Positions 2,521 through 46,620 of a stretch of DNA of 48,563 nucleotides are shown here, piece after piece; the first letter of the stretch is position 1; every line of letters begins with the position of its first letter. The notes under the pieces were generated by a model. The model did not search any database. It worked only from the letters and a program-made list of their open reading frames with translations, and was not told the origin of the DNA. Made by a program: the position numbers and the translations under genes. This DNA comes from Octopus sinensis (lineage: Eukaryota): contig NW_021834440.1 of assembly GCF_006345805.1 (NCBI RefSeq), positions 1 to 48,563 of the forward strand, in the 5' to 3' direction.

Positions 2521-2701
2521 GTCGTATGCCTCCCCCACCTTTCCAAAAGAGGCTGCTCGCTCATACGTTGTTGTCTTCGACGGGAGGGCCCATCATTAGT
2601 CAGATATATAAAGAAATATAGTGAATATATGCGTACTTACGACGTACAGGATTGTGAGCCTGTTTTGTGCTATTTGTAGCATTATTATTATACTTGTCAT
2701 T

Positions 2702-3277
2702 AAGGCAGCGAGCTGGCAGAAACGTTAGCACGCCGAACGAGATGCATAGCGGTATTTCGTCTGTCTTTACGTTCTGAGATCAAATTCCGCCGAGGTCGAC
2801 TTTGCCTTTCATCCTTTCGGGGTCGATAAAACTAAGTACCAGTTACGCACTGGGGTCGATGTAATCGACTTAATACCTATGTCTGTCCTTGTTTGTCCCA
2901 TCTGTGTTTAGCCCCTTGTGGGTAATAAAGAAATAGGTATTTCGTCTGTCTTTACGTTCTGAGATCAAATTCCGCCGAGGTCGACTTTGCCTTTCATCCT
3001 TTCGGGGTCGATAAAACTAAGTACCAGTTACGCACTGGGGTCGATGTAATCGACTTAATACCTATGTCTGTCCTTGTTTGTCCCATCTGTGTGTAGCCCC
3101 TTGTGGGTAATAAAGAAATAGGTATTTCGTCTGTCTTTACGTTCTGAGATCAAATTCCGCCGAGATCGACTTTCCCTTTCGAGGTCGATAAATTAAGTAC
3201 CAGTTGCATACTGGGGTTGATTTTAAGTGACTGGTCCCCTGCCCGAAAATTTCAGGCCTTGTGCCTAAAGTAGAAAA
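2702..3277 (+). mobile_element. SINE family A, trimeric array (head, two 185-bp tailed units, terminal unit)
   Basis: Head ggcagcgagctggcagaaacgttagc; units start at ggtatttcgtctg at 2751, 2936 and 3121; ends ccttgtgcctaaagtagaaaa like the monomer at 36933-37148. Confidence 0.9.
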
Positions 3278-3805: not shown

Positions 3806-4330
3806 GAGGCGGCGAGCTGGCAGAAACGTTAGCACGCCGGGCGAAGTGCTTAGCGGTATTTCGTCTGCCGTTACGTTCTGAGTTCAAATTCCGCCGAGGT
3901 CGATTTGCCTTTCATCCTTTCGGGGTCGATAAATTAAGTATCAGTTACGCACTGGGGTCAATATAATCGACTTAATCCGTTTGTCCTCTCTGTGTTTAGC
4001 CCCTTGTGGGTAGTAAAGAAATAGGTATTTCATCTGCCGTTACGTTCTGAGTTCAAATTCCGCCATGGTCGACTTGGCCTTTCATCCTTACGGGTCGATA
4101 AATTAAGTACCAGTTATGCACTGGAGTCGATGTAATCGACTTGATCCGATTGTCGGTAAAGAAATAGGTATTTCATCTGTCTTTACGTTCTGAGTTCAAA
4201 TTCCGCCGAGGTTGACTTTGCCTTTCATCCTTTCAGGGTCGATAAATTAAGTACCAGTTACGTACTGGGGTCATCTAATCGACTGGTCCCCTCCACCAAA
4301 ATTTCGGGCCTTGTACCTAGAGTAAAATAG
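3806..4330 (+). mobile_element. SINE family A, trimeric array
   Basis: Same head; units joined at aagaaata|ggtatttc (~4024, ~4167); terminal tail ccttgtacctagagtaaaa. Confidence 0.9.
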
Positions 4331-4412
4331 AATATAGTCTTCTACTATAGCTCCGGGCCGATCAATGCCTTGAGAGTAAATTTGGTAGACAGTAACTATG
4401 TGGAAGTCACTA

Positions 4413-14429: not shown

Positions 14430-16260
14430 AGGCGGTATTTCGTCTGCCGTTACGTTCTGATTTCAAATTCCGCCGAAGTAGACTTTGCCTTTCTTTCATT
14501 TGGGTCGATTAAATAAATTCCAGTTACGCACTAGAGTCGATGTAATCGACTTAATCTCTTTGTATGTCCTTGTTTGTCCCCTCTATGTAGGCAATAAAGA
14601 AATAAATATATTTTTTTACGAACAGGCGGCGAGTTGGCTGAGACGTTAGCTTGCTGGGCGAAATATTTAGCGGTATCTCGTCTGCCGTTACGTTCTGAGT
14701 TGAAATTCCATCGAGATCGACTTTGCCTTTCATCCTTTCGGGATCGATAAATTAATTACCAGTTATGTACTGGGGTCGATCTAATCGACTGGCCTCTCCC
14801 CAAAAATATCGGGCCTCGTGCCTAAAGTAGGAAAGAAAATACTAGATTTTACGTTCTGAGTTCAAATTTCGCTGAGGTCGACTTTGACTTTCATCCTTTC
14901 AGGGCCGTTAAATTAAGTATCAGTTACGCACTGGGGTCGATGTAATCAAGTTAATCCCTTTGTCTATCCTTTTTTGTCTGTTCTTTTTTGTCTCCTCTAT
15001 GCCCTTTTTTGTCTCCTCTATTGCCCTTGTGGGCAATAAAGAAGTAAGAAACGTTAGCACGCCGGGCGAAATGAGTTCAAATTCTGCCGAGGTCGACTTT
15101 GCCTTTCATCCTTTCGGGGTCGATAAATTAAGTACCAGTTACGCACTGGGATCGATATAATCGACTTAATCTGTTTGTCTGTCCTTGTTTGTCCCCTCTG
15201 TGTGTAGCCCCTTGTAGGCAGTAAAGAAATAGGTATTTCGTCTGTCATTACGTTCTGAGTTCAAAATCTGCCGAGGTCAACTTTGCGTTTCATCCTTTCG
15301 GGATTGATAAATTAAGTACCAGTTACGTACTGGGTCCATGTAATAGACTCGTCCCCTCCCCCAAAATTTCGGGCCATGTACCTAGAGTAGAAAAGGATAA
15401 TTAAGTCCTAGTTGAACACTAAGGTTGATCTAATCGACTAGCTCTGTCCCACCCCCAGAATTCCGTATAGTAGAAAGGATTGTCCTTTCGGGATCGATAA
15501 AATAGAATATTAATCAAGAACTGGGGTCGAAGTAGTCGATTTGCCGTCATCTCACAATTGCAGACCCTGTGCAAAACATGGGGAACATCCCCCTTCAAGG
15601 TAACTATGTAAATCTTACTTACCCTCCTCTGCCGTAATCAAATAACCAGTGGTGCAAAAACAGAATCATTAGCGCGACCGACAAAATGTTTGATGGCATT
15701 TCTTCTAGCTCAACGTTCTGAGTTCAAATTCCACCGAGGTCATCTTTGCTTTTCATTCTTTCGAGGTCGATAAAGTAGAGAACCAATCAAGTATTGGGGT
15801 TCATATAATCGATCAGTCCACGACACAAAATTTCATCCCTTGTACCTTTAGTAGAAAGAATTGTCATTAATATAAAAGGGCAACTCCGTTCATATTCCGC
15901 CGGGGTCGACTTTGCCTTCCATCCAATCGAGATCGATAAATTAAGTGGTACCTGTGAACCACTGGGGTCGATTGTAATCGACTAGTCACCTTCACCAAAA
16001 TTTCAGGTCTTTTGCCTTTAATAGATAGCATTATTATAAAAGGCAGCGAGCTAGTAGTATTGTTAGCGCGTCAAACAAAACGCTTAAACGCATGTTTTCC
16101 GATTCTTTACTTTCTGAGTTTAAATCTTGCCAAAGTTAACTTTGCATTTCGTCCTTTAGGGGTCGATAGAAGAAAATACCAATGAAAGACTGGGGTCGTT
16201 GTAGTCGATTTTCCCCTCATCTCACAATTGCAGACCCTGAGCAAAACATGGGGAACATCC
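14430..16260 (+). mobile_element. Array of about ten same-orientation SINE A units of mixed age
   Basis: Repeated ttacgttctgagttcaaattc..gtcgactttgcctttcatcc..ctggggtcgat motifs; young units at 14430-15395, divergent units at 15400-16260. Confidence 0.85.
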
Positions 16261-22080: not shown

Positions 22081-22745
22081 TGCCTTTGCACAGCTTCTAA
22101 CTCTGGAGATGTTGTACAGTGTCAGCTGTTCACTACCAGTGAACTAAGGTAATACCTCTTAGTTTTCGAGCACCTTCCGGAGTATTCGAGCAGTTCCAAG
22201 CAGTGCTGTTTTCTGCAAGTGCTCCACCCTTATTGCAGCCTCTGTTTGTTCCACGTACATCTCGAGATCTTTGATCATTGTTCCCAGGACTCCGACAATT
22301 ATTGGTACTACTGCTACCTTTTTCATCGACCACAACAGCTTAACTTCCCAAGCTAACCTATCATATCTCTCAACTTTTCATTCTTCCTTATCGCATACCT
22401 TGTTGTCAGCTGGGCAAGCTATAGCTATGATTCAGCATAGGTTGTTTTCTTTCTCAATTAAGACTGTCTGGCTTTCTATTCTCTATCTCATGGTCGAACT
22501 GAATCATAAAATCCCATAGGATCTTTGCATTTCTATTTTCGACGATGCCTTCAGGTTTGTGGTCGTACCAATTTTTTGCTTTGTCAAGTCCATACTTGCT
22601 GCAAAGTGTCCAATAGACAAGCCTGGCTATATTGTCGTGGCGTCTCTTATATTCCTTCTGGGCTAGTGTCGTACATTGGCTGGTAATATGCCATACGGTT
22701 TCACCGTTTTGTCCACACATTCTGCAATTATCACTTTCTGATGTG
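22081..22745 (-). mobile_element. R4/Dong-clade RLE LINE, 5'-truncated, inserted in (TAA)n
   Basis: CRMCGQNGETVWHITSQC (CCHC), RHD, ILWDF, RKPD...IACPAD...EKVERY RLE motifs, VPIIVGVLG; (TTA)n on both flanks. Confidence 0.9.
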
Positions 22746-22774
22746 TTATTATTATTATTATCATTATTATTATT

Positions 22775-22945
22775 GCAAAGATTCTAACACTGGGGATATA
22801 CTACGGTGTCAGCTGTTCACTACCAGTGAACTAAGGTAACACCCCTTCTTTTTTAATCATTATCTGGAGTATTTGAACGGTTCGAAGAAGTGCTGTTTTC
22901 TGCAAATGATCCACCCTTATTGCAACCATTATTTGTTCCATGTAC
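22775..22945 (-). mobile_element. Second, more diverged 3' fragment of the same Dong-like family
   Basis: gtgtcagctgttcactaccagtgaactaaggtaa is shared with 22119-22152; flanked by (TTA)n. Confidence 0.85.
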
Positions 22946-25924: not shown

Positions 25925-26004
25925 AAGCAGTATTGTATTTCATCCTTTGATATTGTCCTCAATGTCTTGGACCCCTTATGGCTATTAAAAGAAATCTTTA
26001 TAAA

Positions 26005-28900: not shown

Positions 28901-29016
28901 ATACATACATTATGTATGTATGTCTCTTCTACGTTTTGTATGTATGTCTCTCTTCCTGTTCTACTTCTATGTATGTATGTCTCTTCTTGTTCCTACATAC
29001 AGGAACAGGAAATGTT

Positions 29017-29419
29017 CTTTTCTACCCTAGGCACAAGGCCCGAAAATTTTTTTTTTTGGGGGGGGCAGTCGATTAGGTCGACCCCAGTATGCAACTGGCA
29101 CTTAATTTATCGATGCTAAATGGATGAAACGCAAAGTCGACCTCGGCGAAATTTGAATTCAGAACGTAAAGACAGACGAAATACCTATTTCTTTATTACC
29201 CACAAGGGGCTAAACACAGAGCGGACAAACAAGGACAGACATAGGTATTAAGTCGATTACATCGACCCCAGTGCGTAACTGGTACTTAATTTATCGACCC
29301 CGAAAGGATGAAAGGCAAAGTCGACCTCGGCGGAATTTGAACTCAGAATGTAACGGCAGACAAAATATCGCTTAGCATTTCGCCCGGCGCGCTAACGTTT
29401 CTGCCAGCTCACCGCCTTA
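29017..29419 (-). mobile_element. SINE A dimer with a 16-bp TSD
   Basis: TSD aggaacaggaaat(g/a)tt at 29001-16 and 29420-35; internal junction aataaagaaata|ggtatttcg. Confidence 0.9.
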
Positions 29420-30055
29420 AGGAACAGGAAATATTAACCAAATACCTGATGCACAAAATGTATAGAAATGCAGGAAAAGTAGTAAAAATTGACAACCGAT
29501 GCAGAACACCGAAGATATCACCCACGTCATAAGTAGTTATTTGAAAATGTCTTCACGATTGTATCTACCGATGAGACATGATCTTGTAGCTAGGGTATTC
29601 TATAATGATATCCGTCGGAAGGATAACCCCGAGGATAATAAGAACCCGCGGTATGGTAGAAGCCATAGCCGCTCATAATAAAAAGGAGTACTGGCGGAAT
29701 GTCCTAGTGAGAACCTCAAAAAAATGTAAGCGCAACAGACGTGATATAATGATTTGGGATGAGCAGAGAAACTGTGTAGAGTTGTAGAAATTAGCTGCCC
29801 AGTGAATGTTAGCATACAGCTGAAGAACAATGAAAAGAGAATACCTAGGCTGAATTATTGAGAAATCTACAGTTACTCTATCCAGATTACAATTTCAGGT
29901 TTATATCTGTAATTACTGGGGCCCTGGGATATGTAACACTGCCTAAATAACAATCTTCAGAAATTAGGCTTCTCAAAACCAGAAAAGTGAAAGCTAATTC
30001 GAAGACTGGAACTGTAAAAAAATGTGAAACTTTCCAGAAGTGTATCATTTAAATA

Positions 30056-31325
30056 CGAGGGGCGTTCAATAAGTAATGCCCCTGACCCACTTGCATTTGT
30101 TTGATCTAGCTGAAATTTTGCATGTGCACTTATTTATACCTCTATAGATTAAGTGGCGAATTACAGCTCTGAACTAATCGTGGTTTCTGATTTACAGGTG
30201 TTTGAACTGAGCCAAGTGTGAAATGGAGCCTGTTGAGTGTCGAGCAGTGATCTGGTTTTTGTATTTGAAAGGACGCACACCACGGGAGACATTTGATGAA
30301 ATGAAAGTAACTTATGGTGATGATGCCTCATCATATGACCTTGTAAAACGCTGGCATTGTGAATTCAAACATAGTCGGAACTCTGTGGAAACAGCTCCCA
30401 GATCTGGTCGCCCCCTTCTGCCGTTGATGAGACGTCTGTCCGTCAAGTTGAGGCTGCCATTTTGGAAGGTCAACGCATAACTATTCGCCAAATAGCCCAT
30501 AAGATCAAGATTAGTACCGGGTCTGTGGAAACTATCATTCATGACCATTTGCATATGCAAAAGGTGTCTGCCAGATGGATTTCCAGGTTGCTCACACCTT
30601 TCCAGAAGCAAGAACGCGTCGAGTGCTCGAGGATGAATTTGGAGATGTGCCAAGAAGATGAGTCAAATTTTTTCAAAAGACTGATCACACAGGATAAAAC
30701 CTGGGTCCATCACTATGATCCATAGACCAAAGCCCAGTCAATGCAGTGAAAGCACCGTGACTCACCTCCTCCAAAGAAGGCAAGGGTGCAGCCCTCCGCT
30801 GACAAGGTTATGCTCACAGTCTTCTGGGACCAGGACGGAGTAGTGATGACAGATTTCCTGGCAAAGGGTACCACAATTACAGGAGCCTATTATGCTTCAC
30901 TTTTGAGGAAATTAAGAGAAGCTATCAAAATCAAGAGGCGGGGCAAGATCAGCAAAGGCATCCTCCTCCTGCAGGACAACGCTCCGGTCCACAACTCGCG
31001 TGTCGCCAGATCAGAAGCACAGGCGTGTAGCTATGAACTCCTCCCCTTGCACCCTCTGATTTTCACCTCTTCCCAGCCATGAAGTTGATTTTGAAAAGAA
31101 AGCGTTTCCCAGATGATGCAGCCTCGATTTCTGAAGTCACGTCGTGGTTGGAGGACCAAGCTGGGGTCTTCTACAAAAACGGTCTCCAGAGCTGCATCAA
31201 ACGATGGGAGAAATGCATAACTCTGGGTAGTTTCTATGTAGGAAAAGACTAATAACTGTGCCAAGTGTCGTTGCTCTACTGCTATGGGAAGTGGGTCAGG
31301 GGCATTACTTATTGAACGCCCCTCG
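30056..31325 (+). mobile_element. Full-length mariner (irritans/Hsmar2-like TIR), 1270 bp
   Basis: Perfect 37-bp TIRs cgaggggcgttcaataagtaatgcccctgacccactt; TA TSD on both sides. Confidence 0.95.
30223..31253 (+). pseudogene. Mariner D,D34D transposase pseudogene
   Basis: HTH N-terminus, APRSGRP, KVSARWISRLL, ITQDKTWVHHY, KVMLTVFWD, LLQDNAPVH, LAPSDFHLF with HPPYSPD deleted; frameshift and stops. Confidence 0.92.
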
Positions 31326-36007: not shown

Positions 36008-37297
36008 CTACAAGGTTAGAAGTCATTGACACTTTTGTTTACCTTGGAAAAACACGTCAAGATGGCCGGCGGTCTTGATGTAGAGATATTCTGTTCTGAA
36101 TAGGGGAATGGCAGTGTTGCATTTGGAAACCTCGAAAAGCGAGTATGGGCAGATAGAAATATTTCCTTGCAGACAATACTCAGTGTCTATAAAACGTTCA
36201 CTGCACTTCTTTATTAGAATGAGACGTGGACCGCTTACAGGCGTCATATGAAAATGCTGGAGAGATTTCATCAAAAGTTCCACTGACATATCTTAGGAGT
36301 CAGGGGGGGGGGAATGTTTCATACCAGATAAAGCTCAATTGAACAACATGTTATCTTGGCTCAAATGAGATGGGCTGGTCATGTTATTAGAATGAAAGAT
36401 GAGCGATTGTCTAAGCGTCCTTATTACGGTAAGCTTAACTCTGTTAAGCGATTGCAAGCCGAGAAAAGGGTATAAAGAATGTGTGAAGGAAAACCTGAAC
36501 AAAATAAATATGAACAATAGTGATTGGGAAATTGATACTCTGGATCGGAACATGTGGAATGGTGCTGTTAGTACTAATTGCAATGCTTGGGAGGAGGAGA
36601 TGCTTCAGCGCTCTGAGCTTAGAAGGGCATGTCAGAAACGAACAATTAACATTGAAATCAACAGTGAATATTTGATATGTATTATGTGCGATCGTGATCG
36701 GTTATCAAAAGCAATATACGTGAATCATATGAAGTCACATGAAAATCGAATGTCCAGGCCATTAATAATCTTGAAATCCAACCGCCTCTTACAACTTGTG
36801 TCATATGTCACAAAACTTGTAAAACAAGATCTGGACTGAAATGACAGAAGCTAGTTCGCAAAAAGATTTCTTCAGGATCAGATTCCAAAGAGCAAAGATG
36901 TACAAGAAACTTGAATAATATCTGTCACTTGTAAGGCGGCGAGCTGGCAGAAACATTAGCACGCCAGGTGATACGCTCAGCAGTATTTCGTCTGCCGCTA
37001 CGTTCTGAGTTCAAATTCCGCCGAGGTCGAATTTGCCTTTCATCCTTTTGGAGTCAATAAATTCAGTGCCAGTTGCGTACTGTTGTCGATCTAATCGACT
37101 GGCTCCTCCGCCCACAAAATTTCGGACCTTGTGCCTAGAGTAGAAAAGAATATCTGTCACTTGTGCTTTAAACGCTGTCAGGAGTTAGTCTTAAATGTCA
37201 TCTGAAGCTTCACCAACGGAGGGAATTTGCTGTATGATGGGGTGATGTTTGTGTGTTGATGGGACGGCTATCGTCATTCAAGATGAAGCAATCATCA
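36008..37297 (+). mobile_element. RTE (BovB-like) LINE 3' part, decayed, interrupted by SINE A
   Basis: [43 protein letters not shown], then C2H2-like fingers. Confidence 0.85.
36933..37148 (+). mobile_element. SINE A monomer (216 bp) with a perfect 16-bp TSD
   Basis: aatatctgtcacttgt at 36917-32 and 37149-64. Confidence 0.95.
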
Positions 37298-45195: not shown

Positions 45196-45275
<80 letters not shown>

Positions 45276-45279
45276 GATA

Positions 45280-45346
<67 letters not shown>

Positions 45347-45380
45347 TAGACAGACAGACAGATAAAATGTCAGACAGACA
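45195..45380. repeat. (GATA)n/(GACA)n microsatellite
   Basis: Direct inspection; abuts the LINE 3' end. Confidence 0.9.
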
Positions 45381-45384
45381 AATG

Positions 45385-46620
45385 TTTCTTTATTGGCCAC
45401 ACAAGGCTGAACACAGAGAGGACAAAATACATAGTAGAGCTTTTCTTTTTGGGGAAGAAGGAAAAAAAAGTGGGGCAAATTTCGATCAAAAGGGATCGTG
45501 AAAAAAAAGGCGATCAATAGGGATCGTGTATCAAAGAAATATCAATGTAAAAAGGGAAAACAGATTAGGTTTATCCGTAGAAAGAAAAGCCTACGGAAAA
45601 GACAACGGTAACCTTGAGCAATGTTATGCAAAAAAAAAACACATTACTGTATCTCTTTTTCCATTTTTTTTTTGTTCATAGGATTATGCTCAAGCTGGCC
45701 CCTACATTCACACGTGCCATCCTTGCTACATTCACCCATCTTTTTTGAAACATTTACAAGACAAAACTTCCCTCTCTACTCTCACCTTCCTTTTCAGGTG
45801 ATACTTGAAGAAGTTGATGAAAGATTGACCAGAGAGGTAAGTGCTGGTCTCTAGACCTTTCAGACGCGTCCACCATACACGTTCTTTTGCCATAGCCACA
45901 AGTATGATGAAAATGACTCTTCCTTTCCGTTTCAAGGAAGGAGGCGCGACAATATTCACGATAGACTTGATTGATAAATCGACTCGTCCCACATGCGATA
46001 GCAGTCGTTCGACATAGGTCGGAAATGATTGGACACTGTACGAGTGCGTGCAGGATGGTTTCGTTGCTCTGACCACATCTCGGGCAGGTCGGCCCTGTGT
46101 TTCTCGAGCCATGCCTGTAGAGCCTATCCCAAACAGGTAGCACTTCTCGATAGCACTGCTAGGCCAGGGATCTCTGGAAGCTGTCCATAGGTCTCGGCCC
46201 GAAAGTCGTCTTGAACAGGCGGGTCTGGTATTCCTCATCGACCCCCAAGTTCGCCCCGAGATCGTCGTCGTACCTCCTCTTCCCTAATCCCCTACAGAAT
46301 ATTTTGGTTGTGTTGAAGTCGCTCAAGGTCGACCCGGGACGGCATAGTTGCTTGAGAGCAACTCGCGGTGCCATTCGCCCTTCCTCGACCTCTTTTTGGT
46401 CCACGACTGCAGTTCGGACATAAAGACGAGCTGCAGGAAAGCGTGCCTCACAAATGGCCACCACACCTGTTCACCGTCGTCTACGCAGGGCCGGAGATGT
46501 CGCAGTCTCAGCGCGTGTCTGCGCATCGTCAACCACGGCATGCCTAGCCCTCCTTTTAACGGGTGATGGCAGCAAACGGATCGCCTGACCATCAGAACGC
46601 ATCCTTTTCACAAGAAGAAG
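45385..46620 (-). mobile_element. Tx1/L1-clade LINE, 5'-truncated (ORF2 C-terminus plus 3' UTR)
   Basis: CHHPLKGGLGMP, FQRSLA..LPVWDRL, CPRCGQSNETILHALVQC (CCHC), AKERVWWTR; ends gccaataaagaaa. Confidence 0.88.

What the first reader, a model, noticed from the sequence alone, without database searches (positions are those of the whole stretch)
3981..4021. SINE A internal tail matches the 3' end of the Tx1/L1 LINE in this window
Seen: SINE ttgtcctctctgtgtttagccccttgtgggtagtaaagaaa versus LINE end (reverse complement of 45385-45425) ttgtcctctctgtgttcagccttgtgtggccaataaagaaa gives 34/41 ungapped identities by hand count. Both can form a gcc-loop-gg(c/t) hairpin before the AATAAAGAAA-type end. 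Established: SINEs borrow the 3' ends of their partner LINEs, but shared tails with L1/Tx1-clade LINEs are uncommon. Inference: a SINE-Tx1 partnership in which one SINE family carries two different tails.
Basis: partly seen in the sequence, partly recalled or inferred. Interest (0 to 1): 0.8.

Follow-up and report, generated by a model that had tools for sequence, protein, structure and literature searches.

The report
Octopus SINE wears a Tx1 tail
A very abundant short mobile repeat (SINE) in this likely octopus genome ends in the same roughly 45-base signature as a whole group of Tx1-like LINE jumping genes and joins at the same two landing spots, so it likely borrows their copying enzyme, a rarely described kind of SINE-LINE pairing.

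Summary
The 34/41 match is real (best of 300 shuffles: 27). The 41-mer is the LINE's true end (20 of 20 ORF2-selected copies). It is not one family's end: about a dozen related Tx1-like lineages end in the same pyrimidine box, short hairpin and AATAAAGAAA, without poly(A). The SINE tail (at least 73,758 exact motif hits) is a mosaic of these ends and is slightly closer to families C and G than to the window's LINE; the exact donor was not found. The tail is often a true terminus with 12-20 bp target duplications like the LINEs'. Tx1-type elements sit inside the SINE head at the same two nucleotides where this tail restarts (9 of 16 termini of one element; 3 of 3 copies of another). The four bases after free tails match the unit that follows them in multimers, pointing to read-through priming (inferred). 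Older subfamilies carry other tails, partner unknown. No assay; Tx1 versus L1 not tested against named references. Ten paper searches found no tail-sharing SINE-Tx1 pair; Repbase was not available. The scan noted SINE-targeting Tx1-like LINEs and an L1-tailed SINE before, on other genomes.

The parts
3806..3905 (+). SINE head, tRNA-like: A-box-like bases near 3818-3830 and B-box-like GTTCAAATTCC at 3882-3892 (box consensus recalled); no tRNA call
   Evidence: sequence; ARAGORN 0 genes; Rfam no tRNA match
3821..3822 (+). Landing site 1 in the head (CTGGC^AGAAACG): restart point of CAAT-type tails and insertion site of the ORF1-only D-tailed element
3854..3855 (+). Landing site 2 in the head (TAGC^GGTATTTCG): restart point of most tail-A units and insertion site of Tx1-like family M
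3906..3971 (+). SINE central body shared by tail A, B and C subfamilies
3972..4023 (+). Tail A, Tx1-type 3' end (this copy lacks 14 nt of the usual tail); holds the finding's 41-mer at 3981-4021
4024..4166 (+). Second unit, restarting at site 2, with a partly deleted tail A
4167..4333 (+). Third unit ending in the older tail B (about 4284-4333); partner LINE unknown
45384..46617 (-). 5'-truncated, frameshifted Tx1-like LINE copy (family A, older subfamily): end of ORF2 with weak zf-RVT hit, 3' UTR, terminal 41-mer at 45385-45425
   Evidence: 83% identical to near-full copy L031 over 1167 nt; zf-RVT E 3e-5, below the curated cut-off
45199..45383 (-). (ATCT)n microsatellite following the LINE end, typical of family A
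2700..3275 (+). Compound SINE A>A>B with tail A at 2893-2933 and 3078-3118
29012..29421 (-). Compound SINE A>B with tail A at 29188-29228 and a 13-16 bp target duplication around the whole
14432..14604 (+). 5'-truncated SINE ending freely in a partly deleted tail A
36934..37153 (+). SINE monomer with tail B and a 16 bp target duplication

Best explanation
The SINE's youngest subfamilies end in a 3' tail that matches the conserved end of this genome's Tx1-like LINEs, and they were likely copied in trans by those LINEs' ORF2 protein, most likely from the C/D/G/M branch rather than the window's own family. Shown: shared end, true termini with LINE-like target duplications, no poly(A), identical landing nucleotides, tail A younger than tails B and C. 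Inferred: an older SINE body captured a Tx1 end by template switch or recombination just after its central domain; ORF2p recognises the pyrimidine box, hairpin and AATAAAGAAA and starts reverse transcription right after it; the next four or so read-through bases of the RNA pair with the nicked target, so a tail inside a multimer still works as a start point and copies are steered to GGTA, AGAA or TATA sites, among them the head of other SINE copies, which builds and maintains the multimers (about 0.55 for this last step).
For: 34/41 against at most 27 in 300 shuffles. LINE end conserved in 29 of 30 and 20 of 20 copies. SINE tails match ten Tx1-like groups at 23-34 of 42 nt, against 12-17 for one CR1-like and two RTE-like ends and about 15 +/- 3.5 for shuffles. 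The lineages form one branch apart from CR1-like and RTE-like RTs and differ by up to about 40% in RT, while older SINE subfamilies lack the tail: LINE-to-SINE direction. Target duplications of 10 bp or more in 26 of 41 elements ending in tail A (2.3% in mismatched controls); 13-19 bp in 11 Tx1-like copies. An ORF1-only element found by its own tail ends in the SINE head at site 1 in 9 of 16 non-tandem termini, 6 more start AGAA; the head is also at the 5' side in 7 of those 9. Family M sits at site 2 with a 16-bp duplication in 3 of 3 copies seen. Free tail-A ends: 18 of 30 G-starting flanks are GGTA (background 1.45%), 9 of 20 A-starting are AGAA (2.2%), and the tail variant predicts which (Fisher p 3e-4). 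Four matching bases suffice for human L1 priming (PMC3649969 abstract).
Against: No Tx1-like family with the whole tail A was found: best family means are 34 of 42 against 38 for SINE against SINE, and a motif search for a B-like upstream plus SINE-like downstream end gave 7 hits, all SINE copies. The hairpin is weak: no energy excess in single sequences; a 3-4 bp Watson-Crick stem in 10 of 11 lineages, combined p 0.017, no single lineage below 0.03. The test for self-insertion is mixed: shared rare variants are not enriched near the junction overall (11 of 71 against 35 of 302, p 0.42) and only in the post hoc A-before-B/C/other subgroup (7 of 36 against 9 of 160, p 0.013). The M copies were met beside SINE-selected or neighbouring loci, so 3 of 3 is biased. 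SINE samples are mostly the first hits on contig C1. Tail B copies also have 11-16 bp duplications (6 of 14), so duplication length alone does not single out Tx1. No experiment.
Confidence: 0.8

Rival explanations
1. Same partnership, but target choice comes from the endonucleases alone: different Tx1-like families cut GGTA, AGAA or TATA sites and each mobilises a different SINE tail variant; no RNA-target pairing is needed.
For: Tx1 target choice is attributed mainly to the endonuclease (PMC4494074 introduction). Families here have distinct flanks: microsatellite, U1 gene, SINE head. The base before the duplication is C or T in 31 of 41 SINE sites. Matches beyond four bases are not clearly above chance.
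Against: Tail variants differing by one or two bases go with different flanks, and each flank equals the unit that follows that variant in multimers. The D-tailed ORF1-only element shows the same graded AGAA match, while ORF2-bearing D copies with the same terminal 28 nt have other flanks.
Confidence: 0.3
2. The window's own LINE family (A) is the partner.
For: 32.5 of 42 mean identity, close to the best families. Family A ends are followed by ATAT/ATCT and 21 of 27 T-starting SINE flanks are TATA. Ages overlap.
Against: Its loop is 6 nt and its end AAAC, against 5 nt and AAAT in the SINE and in C, D, I, M. Its young copies sit in (ATCT)n, which SINE copies rarely do. No family-A copy was seen in a SINE head.
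Confidence: 0.12
3. The tail came from a Tx1-like LINE once, but the SINE is copied by another LINE clade (RTE or CR1) that ignores it, perhaps the unknown partner of tail B.
For: Tail B elements have similar duplication lengths; A>B compounds with a duplication around the whole exist; CR1-like and RTE-like LINEs are abundant here.
Against: Copies end exactly at the Tx1 terminus with no added repeat, whereas the CR1-like family ends in (ATT)n; Tx1-type elements use the same two landing nucleotides; in A>B compounds the A unit is younger (4.8% against 7.8%, n 18, p 0.039), as expected if A was added to an existing B copy.
Confidence: 0.06
4. Chance or convergence on a T-rich stretch plus a poly(A) signal, or a SINE fragment abutting the LINE.
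For: AATAAA is a common 3' signal and the genome is AT-rich.
Against: Shuffle control, conserved LINE end, no such match to CR1-like or RTE-like ends, up to 36 nt of near-identity to family B upstream of the hairpin.
Confidence: 0.02

Closest known systems
SINE/LINE pairs with an L1-clade tail: maize ZmSINE2 and ZmSINE3 with LINE1-1_ZM; Chlamydomonas SINEX-3_CR with L1-1_CR (PMC3472496, PMC3747384)
   Same: Shared terminal 45-80 nt between a SINE and an L1-clade LINE; LINE lineage with a conserved end and a hairpin whose stem bases vary.
   Different: Here an animal, a Tx1-like lineage, no poly(A) or poly(T) tail, the end shared by about a dozen coexisting families, and shared target nucleotides as extra evidence.
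Crocodilian SINEU with Tx1-Mar (PMC4494074)
   Same: SINE thought to be mobilised by Tx1; the argument rests on shared insertion sites inside another repeat.
   Different: SINEU has an snRNA head and a poly(A) tail, and no LINE matched the 3' half of SINEU-1. Here the tail is shared and the target repeat is the SINE itself.
Tail exchange in tRNA-derived SINE superfamilies of molluscs and others (PMC5786205, PMC4824008, PMC11481361)
   Same: One head and body with successive tails; 35-61 bp homology at 72-95% identity is the usual evidence.
   Different: Partners reported in bivalves are CR1, CR1-Zenon, L2 and Nimb; the word Tx1 does not occur in that paper's main text.
Target-specific Tx1 elements: Tx1 in Tx1D, Keno in U2, Kibi and Koshi in microsatellites (PMC4494074 introduction)
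   Same: Family-specific targets, here a microsatellite, a U1 gene and a SINE head.
   Different: The targeted SINE is likely also the passenger of the same machinery.
HAL1 (half-L1) ORF1-only elements (PMC5786205 passage)
   Same: The 1.75-kb element has LINE-like ends, one ORF1-like frame and no ORF2.
   Different: It carries a Tx1-type end, forms tandem arrays and lands in a SINE head.
Octopus SINEs OK, OR1, OR2 (Ohshima and Okada 1994; seen only as cited)
   Same: tRNA-type SINEs of octopus; this abundant family may be one of them or a listed repeat.
   Different: Sequences could not be compared; identity untested.

Membership tests
SINE | Short, non-coding, interspersed, high copy | tested here: met
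   Monomer about 232 nt; 25,189 + 48,569 exact tail-A motif hits and 6,716 tail-B hits, reversed controls 0
SINE | Head derived from tRNA, 5S or 7SL with Pol III boxes | tested here: inconclusive
   Box-like motifs by eye (consensus recalled); ARAGORN and Rfam give no tRNA
SINE | Retroposition marks: defined ends and target duplications | tested here: met
   26 of 41 with 10 bp or more, control 2.3%
SINE | Pol III transcription | not testable with these tools
   Only contigs of a guessed RNA run; no start or strand information
L1 group of LINEs (L1 + Tx1) | ORF1 plus ORF2 with APE endonuclease, RT and C-terminal zinc motif | tested here: met
   Exo_endo_phos and RVT_1 in L031; these plus zf-RVT in L144
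L1 group of LINEs (L1 + Tx1) | RT closer to L1 than to other clades | tested here: met
   Human L1 ORF2p E 1e-54 over 850 aa, R2 E 1e-20; own branch 100/99 apart from CR1-like and RTE-like RTs of the genome
Tx1 clade | Groups with named Tx1 elements in an RT or EN tree | not testable with these tools
   No named Tx1 reference among homologues; tree has none
Tx1 clade | Target-sequence preference | tested here: met
   (ATCT)n for family A, U1 gene for one E copy, SINE head for M and the D-tailed element
Tx1 clade | ORF1 with a CCHC knuckle rather than the mammalian L1 ORF1 domain (feature recalled) | tested here: met
   zf-CCHC in 4 of 4 main ORF1 frames scanned, 2 above and 2 below the cut-off; no other family hit
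Stringent SINE/LINE pair | Shared 3' terminal sequence | tested here: met
Stringent SINE/LINE pair | Conserved stem-loop with compensatory changes | tested here: inconclusive
   Stem of 3-4 bp in 10 of 11 lineages with differing bases, combined p 0.017; no energy excess
Stringent SINE/LINE pair | Overlapping activity in time | tested here: met
   Tail-A units median 4.8% from column majority; LINE families 0-11.5% nearest-neighbour distance, biased to best hits
Stringent SINE/LINE pair | Tail-dependent trans-mobilisation | not testable with these tools
   needs a cell assay
MetaSINE / CORE-SINE / OR1, OR2, OK | Central domain matches the published consensus | not testable with these tools
   Consensus not in the supplements searched, file 1 not searchable; resemblance to the Meta domain is recalled only

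The most novel reading that the evidence does not exclude
The cephalopod Tx1 radiation is a stringent, poly(A)-less L1-group system in which a conserved 3' hairpin fixes where reverse transcription starts and the few read-through bases behind it program the target, so target preference is inherited through the RNA. The dominant octopus SINE has captured this end, is copied by these LINEs, and in turn serves as their landing pad and its own: a closed parasite-host loop. Tails B and C may be ends of earlier, lost Tx1 lineages (tail B scores 23-24 of 42 against families C, G, H, about 2.5 SD above shuffles).
Probability: 0.4. Interest if true: 0.8.

Novelty: new variant of a known kind. Interest (0 to 1): 0.64.

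Why it matters
Of 58 SINEs with a LINE tail surveyed in 2012-2013 only three had an L1-clade tail, all in plants or algae, and this gap underlies the idea that L1-group enzymes are relaxed and read only poly(A). A high-copy animal SINE with a Tx1-type tail, and a dozen Tx1-like families keeping that end, would show stringent recognition on the animal side of the L1 group and bears on whether stringency is ancestral. It would also name the engine behind part of the octopus SINE expansion (SINEs are 11.6% of the O. vulgaris genome, PMC13282606). Intact ORF2 frames of 1,126-1,140 aa exist in several families, so the partnership and the read-through targeting can be tested directly; RNA-steered target choice in an L1-group enzyme would interest retrotransposon engineers.

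Tried and rejected
Exact donor: searched by window DNA, window ORF2 end, zf-RVT family, family B DNA (38), a mixed motif, family G protein, family I DNA (49); none ends in the whole tail A; ORF1-only or extinct donors would be missed by most of these. Partner of tails B and C: none among 20 chromosomal RT loci (CR1-like and RTE-like) and no tail-B hit without a SINE body in 30. Named Tx1 reference: none; the nearest named non-cephalopod hit is an unnamed-function fish protein at 29%. tRNA origin: no call. Hairpin by energy: not above shuffles; the MAFFT alignment of 22 ends (69) was too loose in the hairpin for pair counting and was not used for that. Self-insertion test by shared variants: not significant overall. 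Sequencing runs: the SINE is held by runs under four organism labels; the one raw-read run gave 11 reads and no molecule ends, the RNA run is a guess, so nothing on expression. Rows dropped before family counts: 7 of 123 LINE-end rows that were misassigned or duplicates (L308 later proved to be family M; L135 and L150 were kept as lineages K and J); 6 of 149 SINE tails with rare variants. Papers not held: PMC4795812, PMC2923044, PMC1074724.

Full report
Source. The window lies in G000, 2.72 Gb. That it is an octopus is inferred: the LINE's RT is 69% identical to an Argonauta hians protein, which nests inside the genome's own families. The assembly was not identified.

Observation. Window 3981-4021 against 45385-45425 (-) gives 34 of 41; 300 shuffles given their best match in the window reached at most 27. 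The 41-mer lies in a compound SINE at 3806-4333: head, body, tail A, a second unit restarting at GGTATTTC, and a last unit with a different tail B. The LINE copy spans 45384-46617 (-), is 83% identical to a near-full copy L031 and is followed by (ATCT)n.

The 41-mer is the LINE's own end. 29 of 30 loci from a DNA search end in it; that query held the tail, so I also took 20 copies chosen for long open frames among 150 ORF2-protein hits: 20 of 20 end in it at 32-37 of 41. L031 has an ORF1 frame with a weak CCHC knuckle and a 1059-aa endonuclease-RT frame whose best solved relative is human L1 ORF2p (E 1e-54; R2 1e-20). Tx1 rather than L1 proper rests on the CCHC ORF1 (feature recalled), on family-specific targets and on the L1-Tx1 families listed for O. 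vulgaris (PMC13282606, first third read); no named Tx1 reference could be put in a tree.

The end belongs to a radiation, not one family. A zf-RVT search and follow-ups gave about a dozen lineages (A-K, M). They form one branch, 87/98 with the Argonauta protein inside, well apart from CR1-like and RTE-like RTs (quick C-terminal tree). All sampled lineages end in a pyrimidine box, TCT(A/G)TGT-like bases, a short hairpin and AATAAAG-type bases, with no poly(A). Over the last 42 nt, 25 sampled SINE tails match G 34.0, C 33.5, the window's subfamily 32.5, young A 30.7, I 30.3, D 29.2, B 28.3, H 27.3, F 23.9, E 23.2; one CR1-like end 14.6, two RTE-like ends 11.6 and 16.5; shuffles about 15 +/- 3.5; SINE against SINE 38.0. 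The tail is a mosaic: B-like upstream (22.0 of 30), C/D-like downstream (24.9 and 23.8 of 28). No family with the whole tail was found. The stem changes sequence between lineages (GCC/GGC, CCC/GGG, ACC/GGT, GATT/AATC, AATT/AATT) and is present in 10 of 11, combined p 0.017, but single sequences fold no better than shuffles: suggestive only.

Tail A is a real terminus and the youngest tail. Exact motif counts: 25,189 followed by A/C/T, 48,569 followed by G, 6,716 for tail B, reversed controls 0. Among complete elements in fetched DNA, 26 of 41 ending in A have a duplication of 10 bp or more (control 2.3%), 6 of 14 for B, 3 of 7 for C (control 10.7%). Eleven Tx1-like copies whose 5' side was in view show 13-19 bp (most loci did not reach the 5' end). 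Body divergence from the column majority is 4.8% for first or single A units (n 109), 8.6% for lone B (29), 15.8% for C (10); LINE families span 0-11.5% nearest-neighbour distance, biased to best hits. Since the deep LINE lineages all have the end and older SINEs do not, the direction is LINE to SINE (inference). No partner was found for B or C; B is weakly like some Tx1 ends (15-24 of 42 against about 14.5 shuffled), unresolved.

Shared landing sites. Tail A restarts in multimers at two points of the SINE head: AGAAACG (site 1) and GGTATTTCG (site 2). A 1.75-kb ORF1-only element with a family D end, found by its own tail (144 hits, 50 fetched), ends at site 1 in 9 of 16 distinct non-tandem termini of its main subtype; 6 more begin AGAA, 1 does not. 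The SINE's first bases lie at the 5' side in 7 of these 9, with a duplication of up to 14 bp; one array starts elsewhere and one 5' end was not found. ORF2-bearing family M sits at site 2 with a 16-bp duplication on three contigs, 3 of 3 seen, but these were met beside SINE-selected or neighbouring loci. The register is the same as for tail A. This is the kind of evidence used for SINEU and Tx1-Mar, here added to a shared tail.

How it likely works. Of 30 tail-A-plus-G loci 20 continue into another unit and 10 end; 8 of the 10 are followed by GGTA. Over all fetched DNA, 18 of 30 G-starting flanks are GGTA (background 1.45%), 9 of 20 A-starting are AGAA (2.2%), 21 of 27 T-starting are TATA (4.7%); the CAAT variant goes with AGAA (6 to 0) and the others with GGTA (18 to 3), p 3e-4. 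These bases open the 5' copy of the duplication, so they are target bases. Each equals the unit that follows that variant in multimers. The simplest reading is that reverse transcription starts just behind the tail and about four read-through bases pair with the nicked target, as four matches suffice for human L1 (PMC3649969, abstract). An internal tail such as 3981-4021 would then still be a working start signal. Endonuclease-only choice by different families remains a rival. Insertion of A units into older copies fits the A unit being younger than the B unit beside it (4.8% against 7.8%, n 18, p 0.039) and two A>C compounds, but the shared-variant test is not significant overall (p 0.42; post hoc subgroup p 0.013); amplified dimers and local duplication also occur.

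What is known. PMC3472496 (passages) and PMC3747384 (passages and Table 1): 58 SINEs with LINE tails, three with L1-clade tails, all plant or algal, no Tx1 pair listed. PMC4494074 (passages, sections 3 and 16): SINEU likely mobilised by Tx1-Mar, poly(A) tail, no LINE match for SINEU-1's 3' half. PMC11481361 (passages): bivalve partners CR1, CR1-Zenon, L2, Nimb. PMC5786205, PMC4758252, PMC4824008, PMC3531059, PMC9115989, PMC8967140 (passages): tail exchange is known; no octopus SINE partner named in the passages seen. Ten searches listed no tail-sharing SINE-Tx1 pair. The library lacks most subscription journals; Repbase, Dfam, the 1994 octopus SINE paper, the 2015 octopus genome paper and unread supplements may already record it. 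Earlier scan notes on other genomes describe Tx1-like LINEs landing in SINEs and a lone L1-tailed SINE-like insert; none on this genome.

Verdict. Real, well supported at sequence level, a new variant of the known SINE/LINE tail partnership. Tx1-derived and Tx1-mobilised 0.8; window's family as the partner 0.12; read-through priming about 0.55. Interest 0.64.

Noticed in passing
L156:7159-7322 (G000:C15): A family E Tx1-like 3' end abuts the first base of a full U1 snRNA gene (Rfam RF00003, 125 bits): a possible U1-targeting element; one copy only, 5' junction not found.
   Followed up: partly
L338, L342-L391 (many contigs): A 1.75-kb ORF1-only (HAL1-like) element with a family D end forms tandem arrays of up to eight units and lands in the SINE head; a second tail subtype has other flanks.
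   Followed up: partly
L031-L050: Young family A copies are flanked by (ATCT)n, at both ends in near-full L031: likely a microsatellite-targeting element.
   Followed up: partly
L102-L107, L157, L143, L153, L184-L194, L199-L224: Families F, E, G and I each have one recurring downstream flank, pointing to further fixed targets in unidentified repeats; several families form head-to-tail arrays.
   Followed up: no
L141, L143-L147: Intact ORF2 frames of 1126-1140 aa in families C, D, E, G; many more listed: recently active elements.
   Followed up: partly
L228-L257 (unplaced contigs such as C1794, C2292, C8702, C12462): The top RVT_1 hits are near-identical RTs of a separate group, all 30 on unplaced contigs; possibly a second organism in the assembly.
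   Followed up: no
L031:2270-2310: The 5' region of a family A element holds a 15-nt stretch identical to the SINE tail hairpin, inside a longer inverted repeat; chance not assessed.
   Followed up: no
G000:C1:13007411-13008495: An array of about 53-nt units made of the tail A end alone (listing): a SINE-tail minisatellite.
   Followed up: no
window 22454-22783 (-), 36300-36840 (+), 30375-31082 (+): Fragments that look like an R4/Dong-type LINE end, an RTE-type ORF end and a mariner-type transposase (labels recalled from motifs; only a weak zf-RVT hit for the first).
   Followed up: no
window 25953-25993 (+): A 30 of 41 match to tail A with no SINE body, followed by simple repeats; possibly the decayed end of another Tx1-type element.
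   Followed up: no
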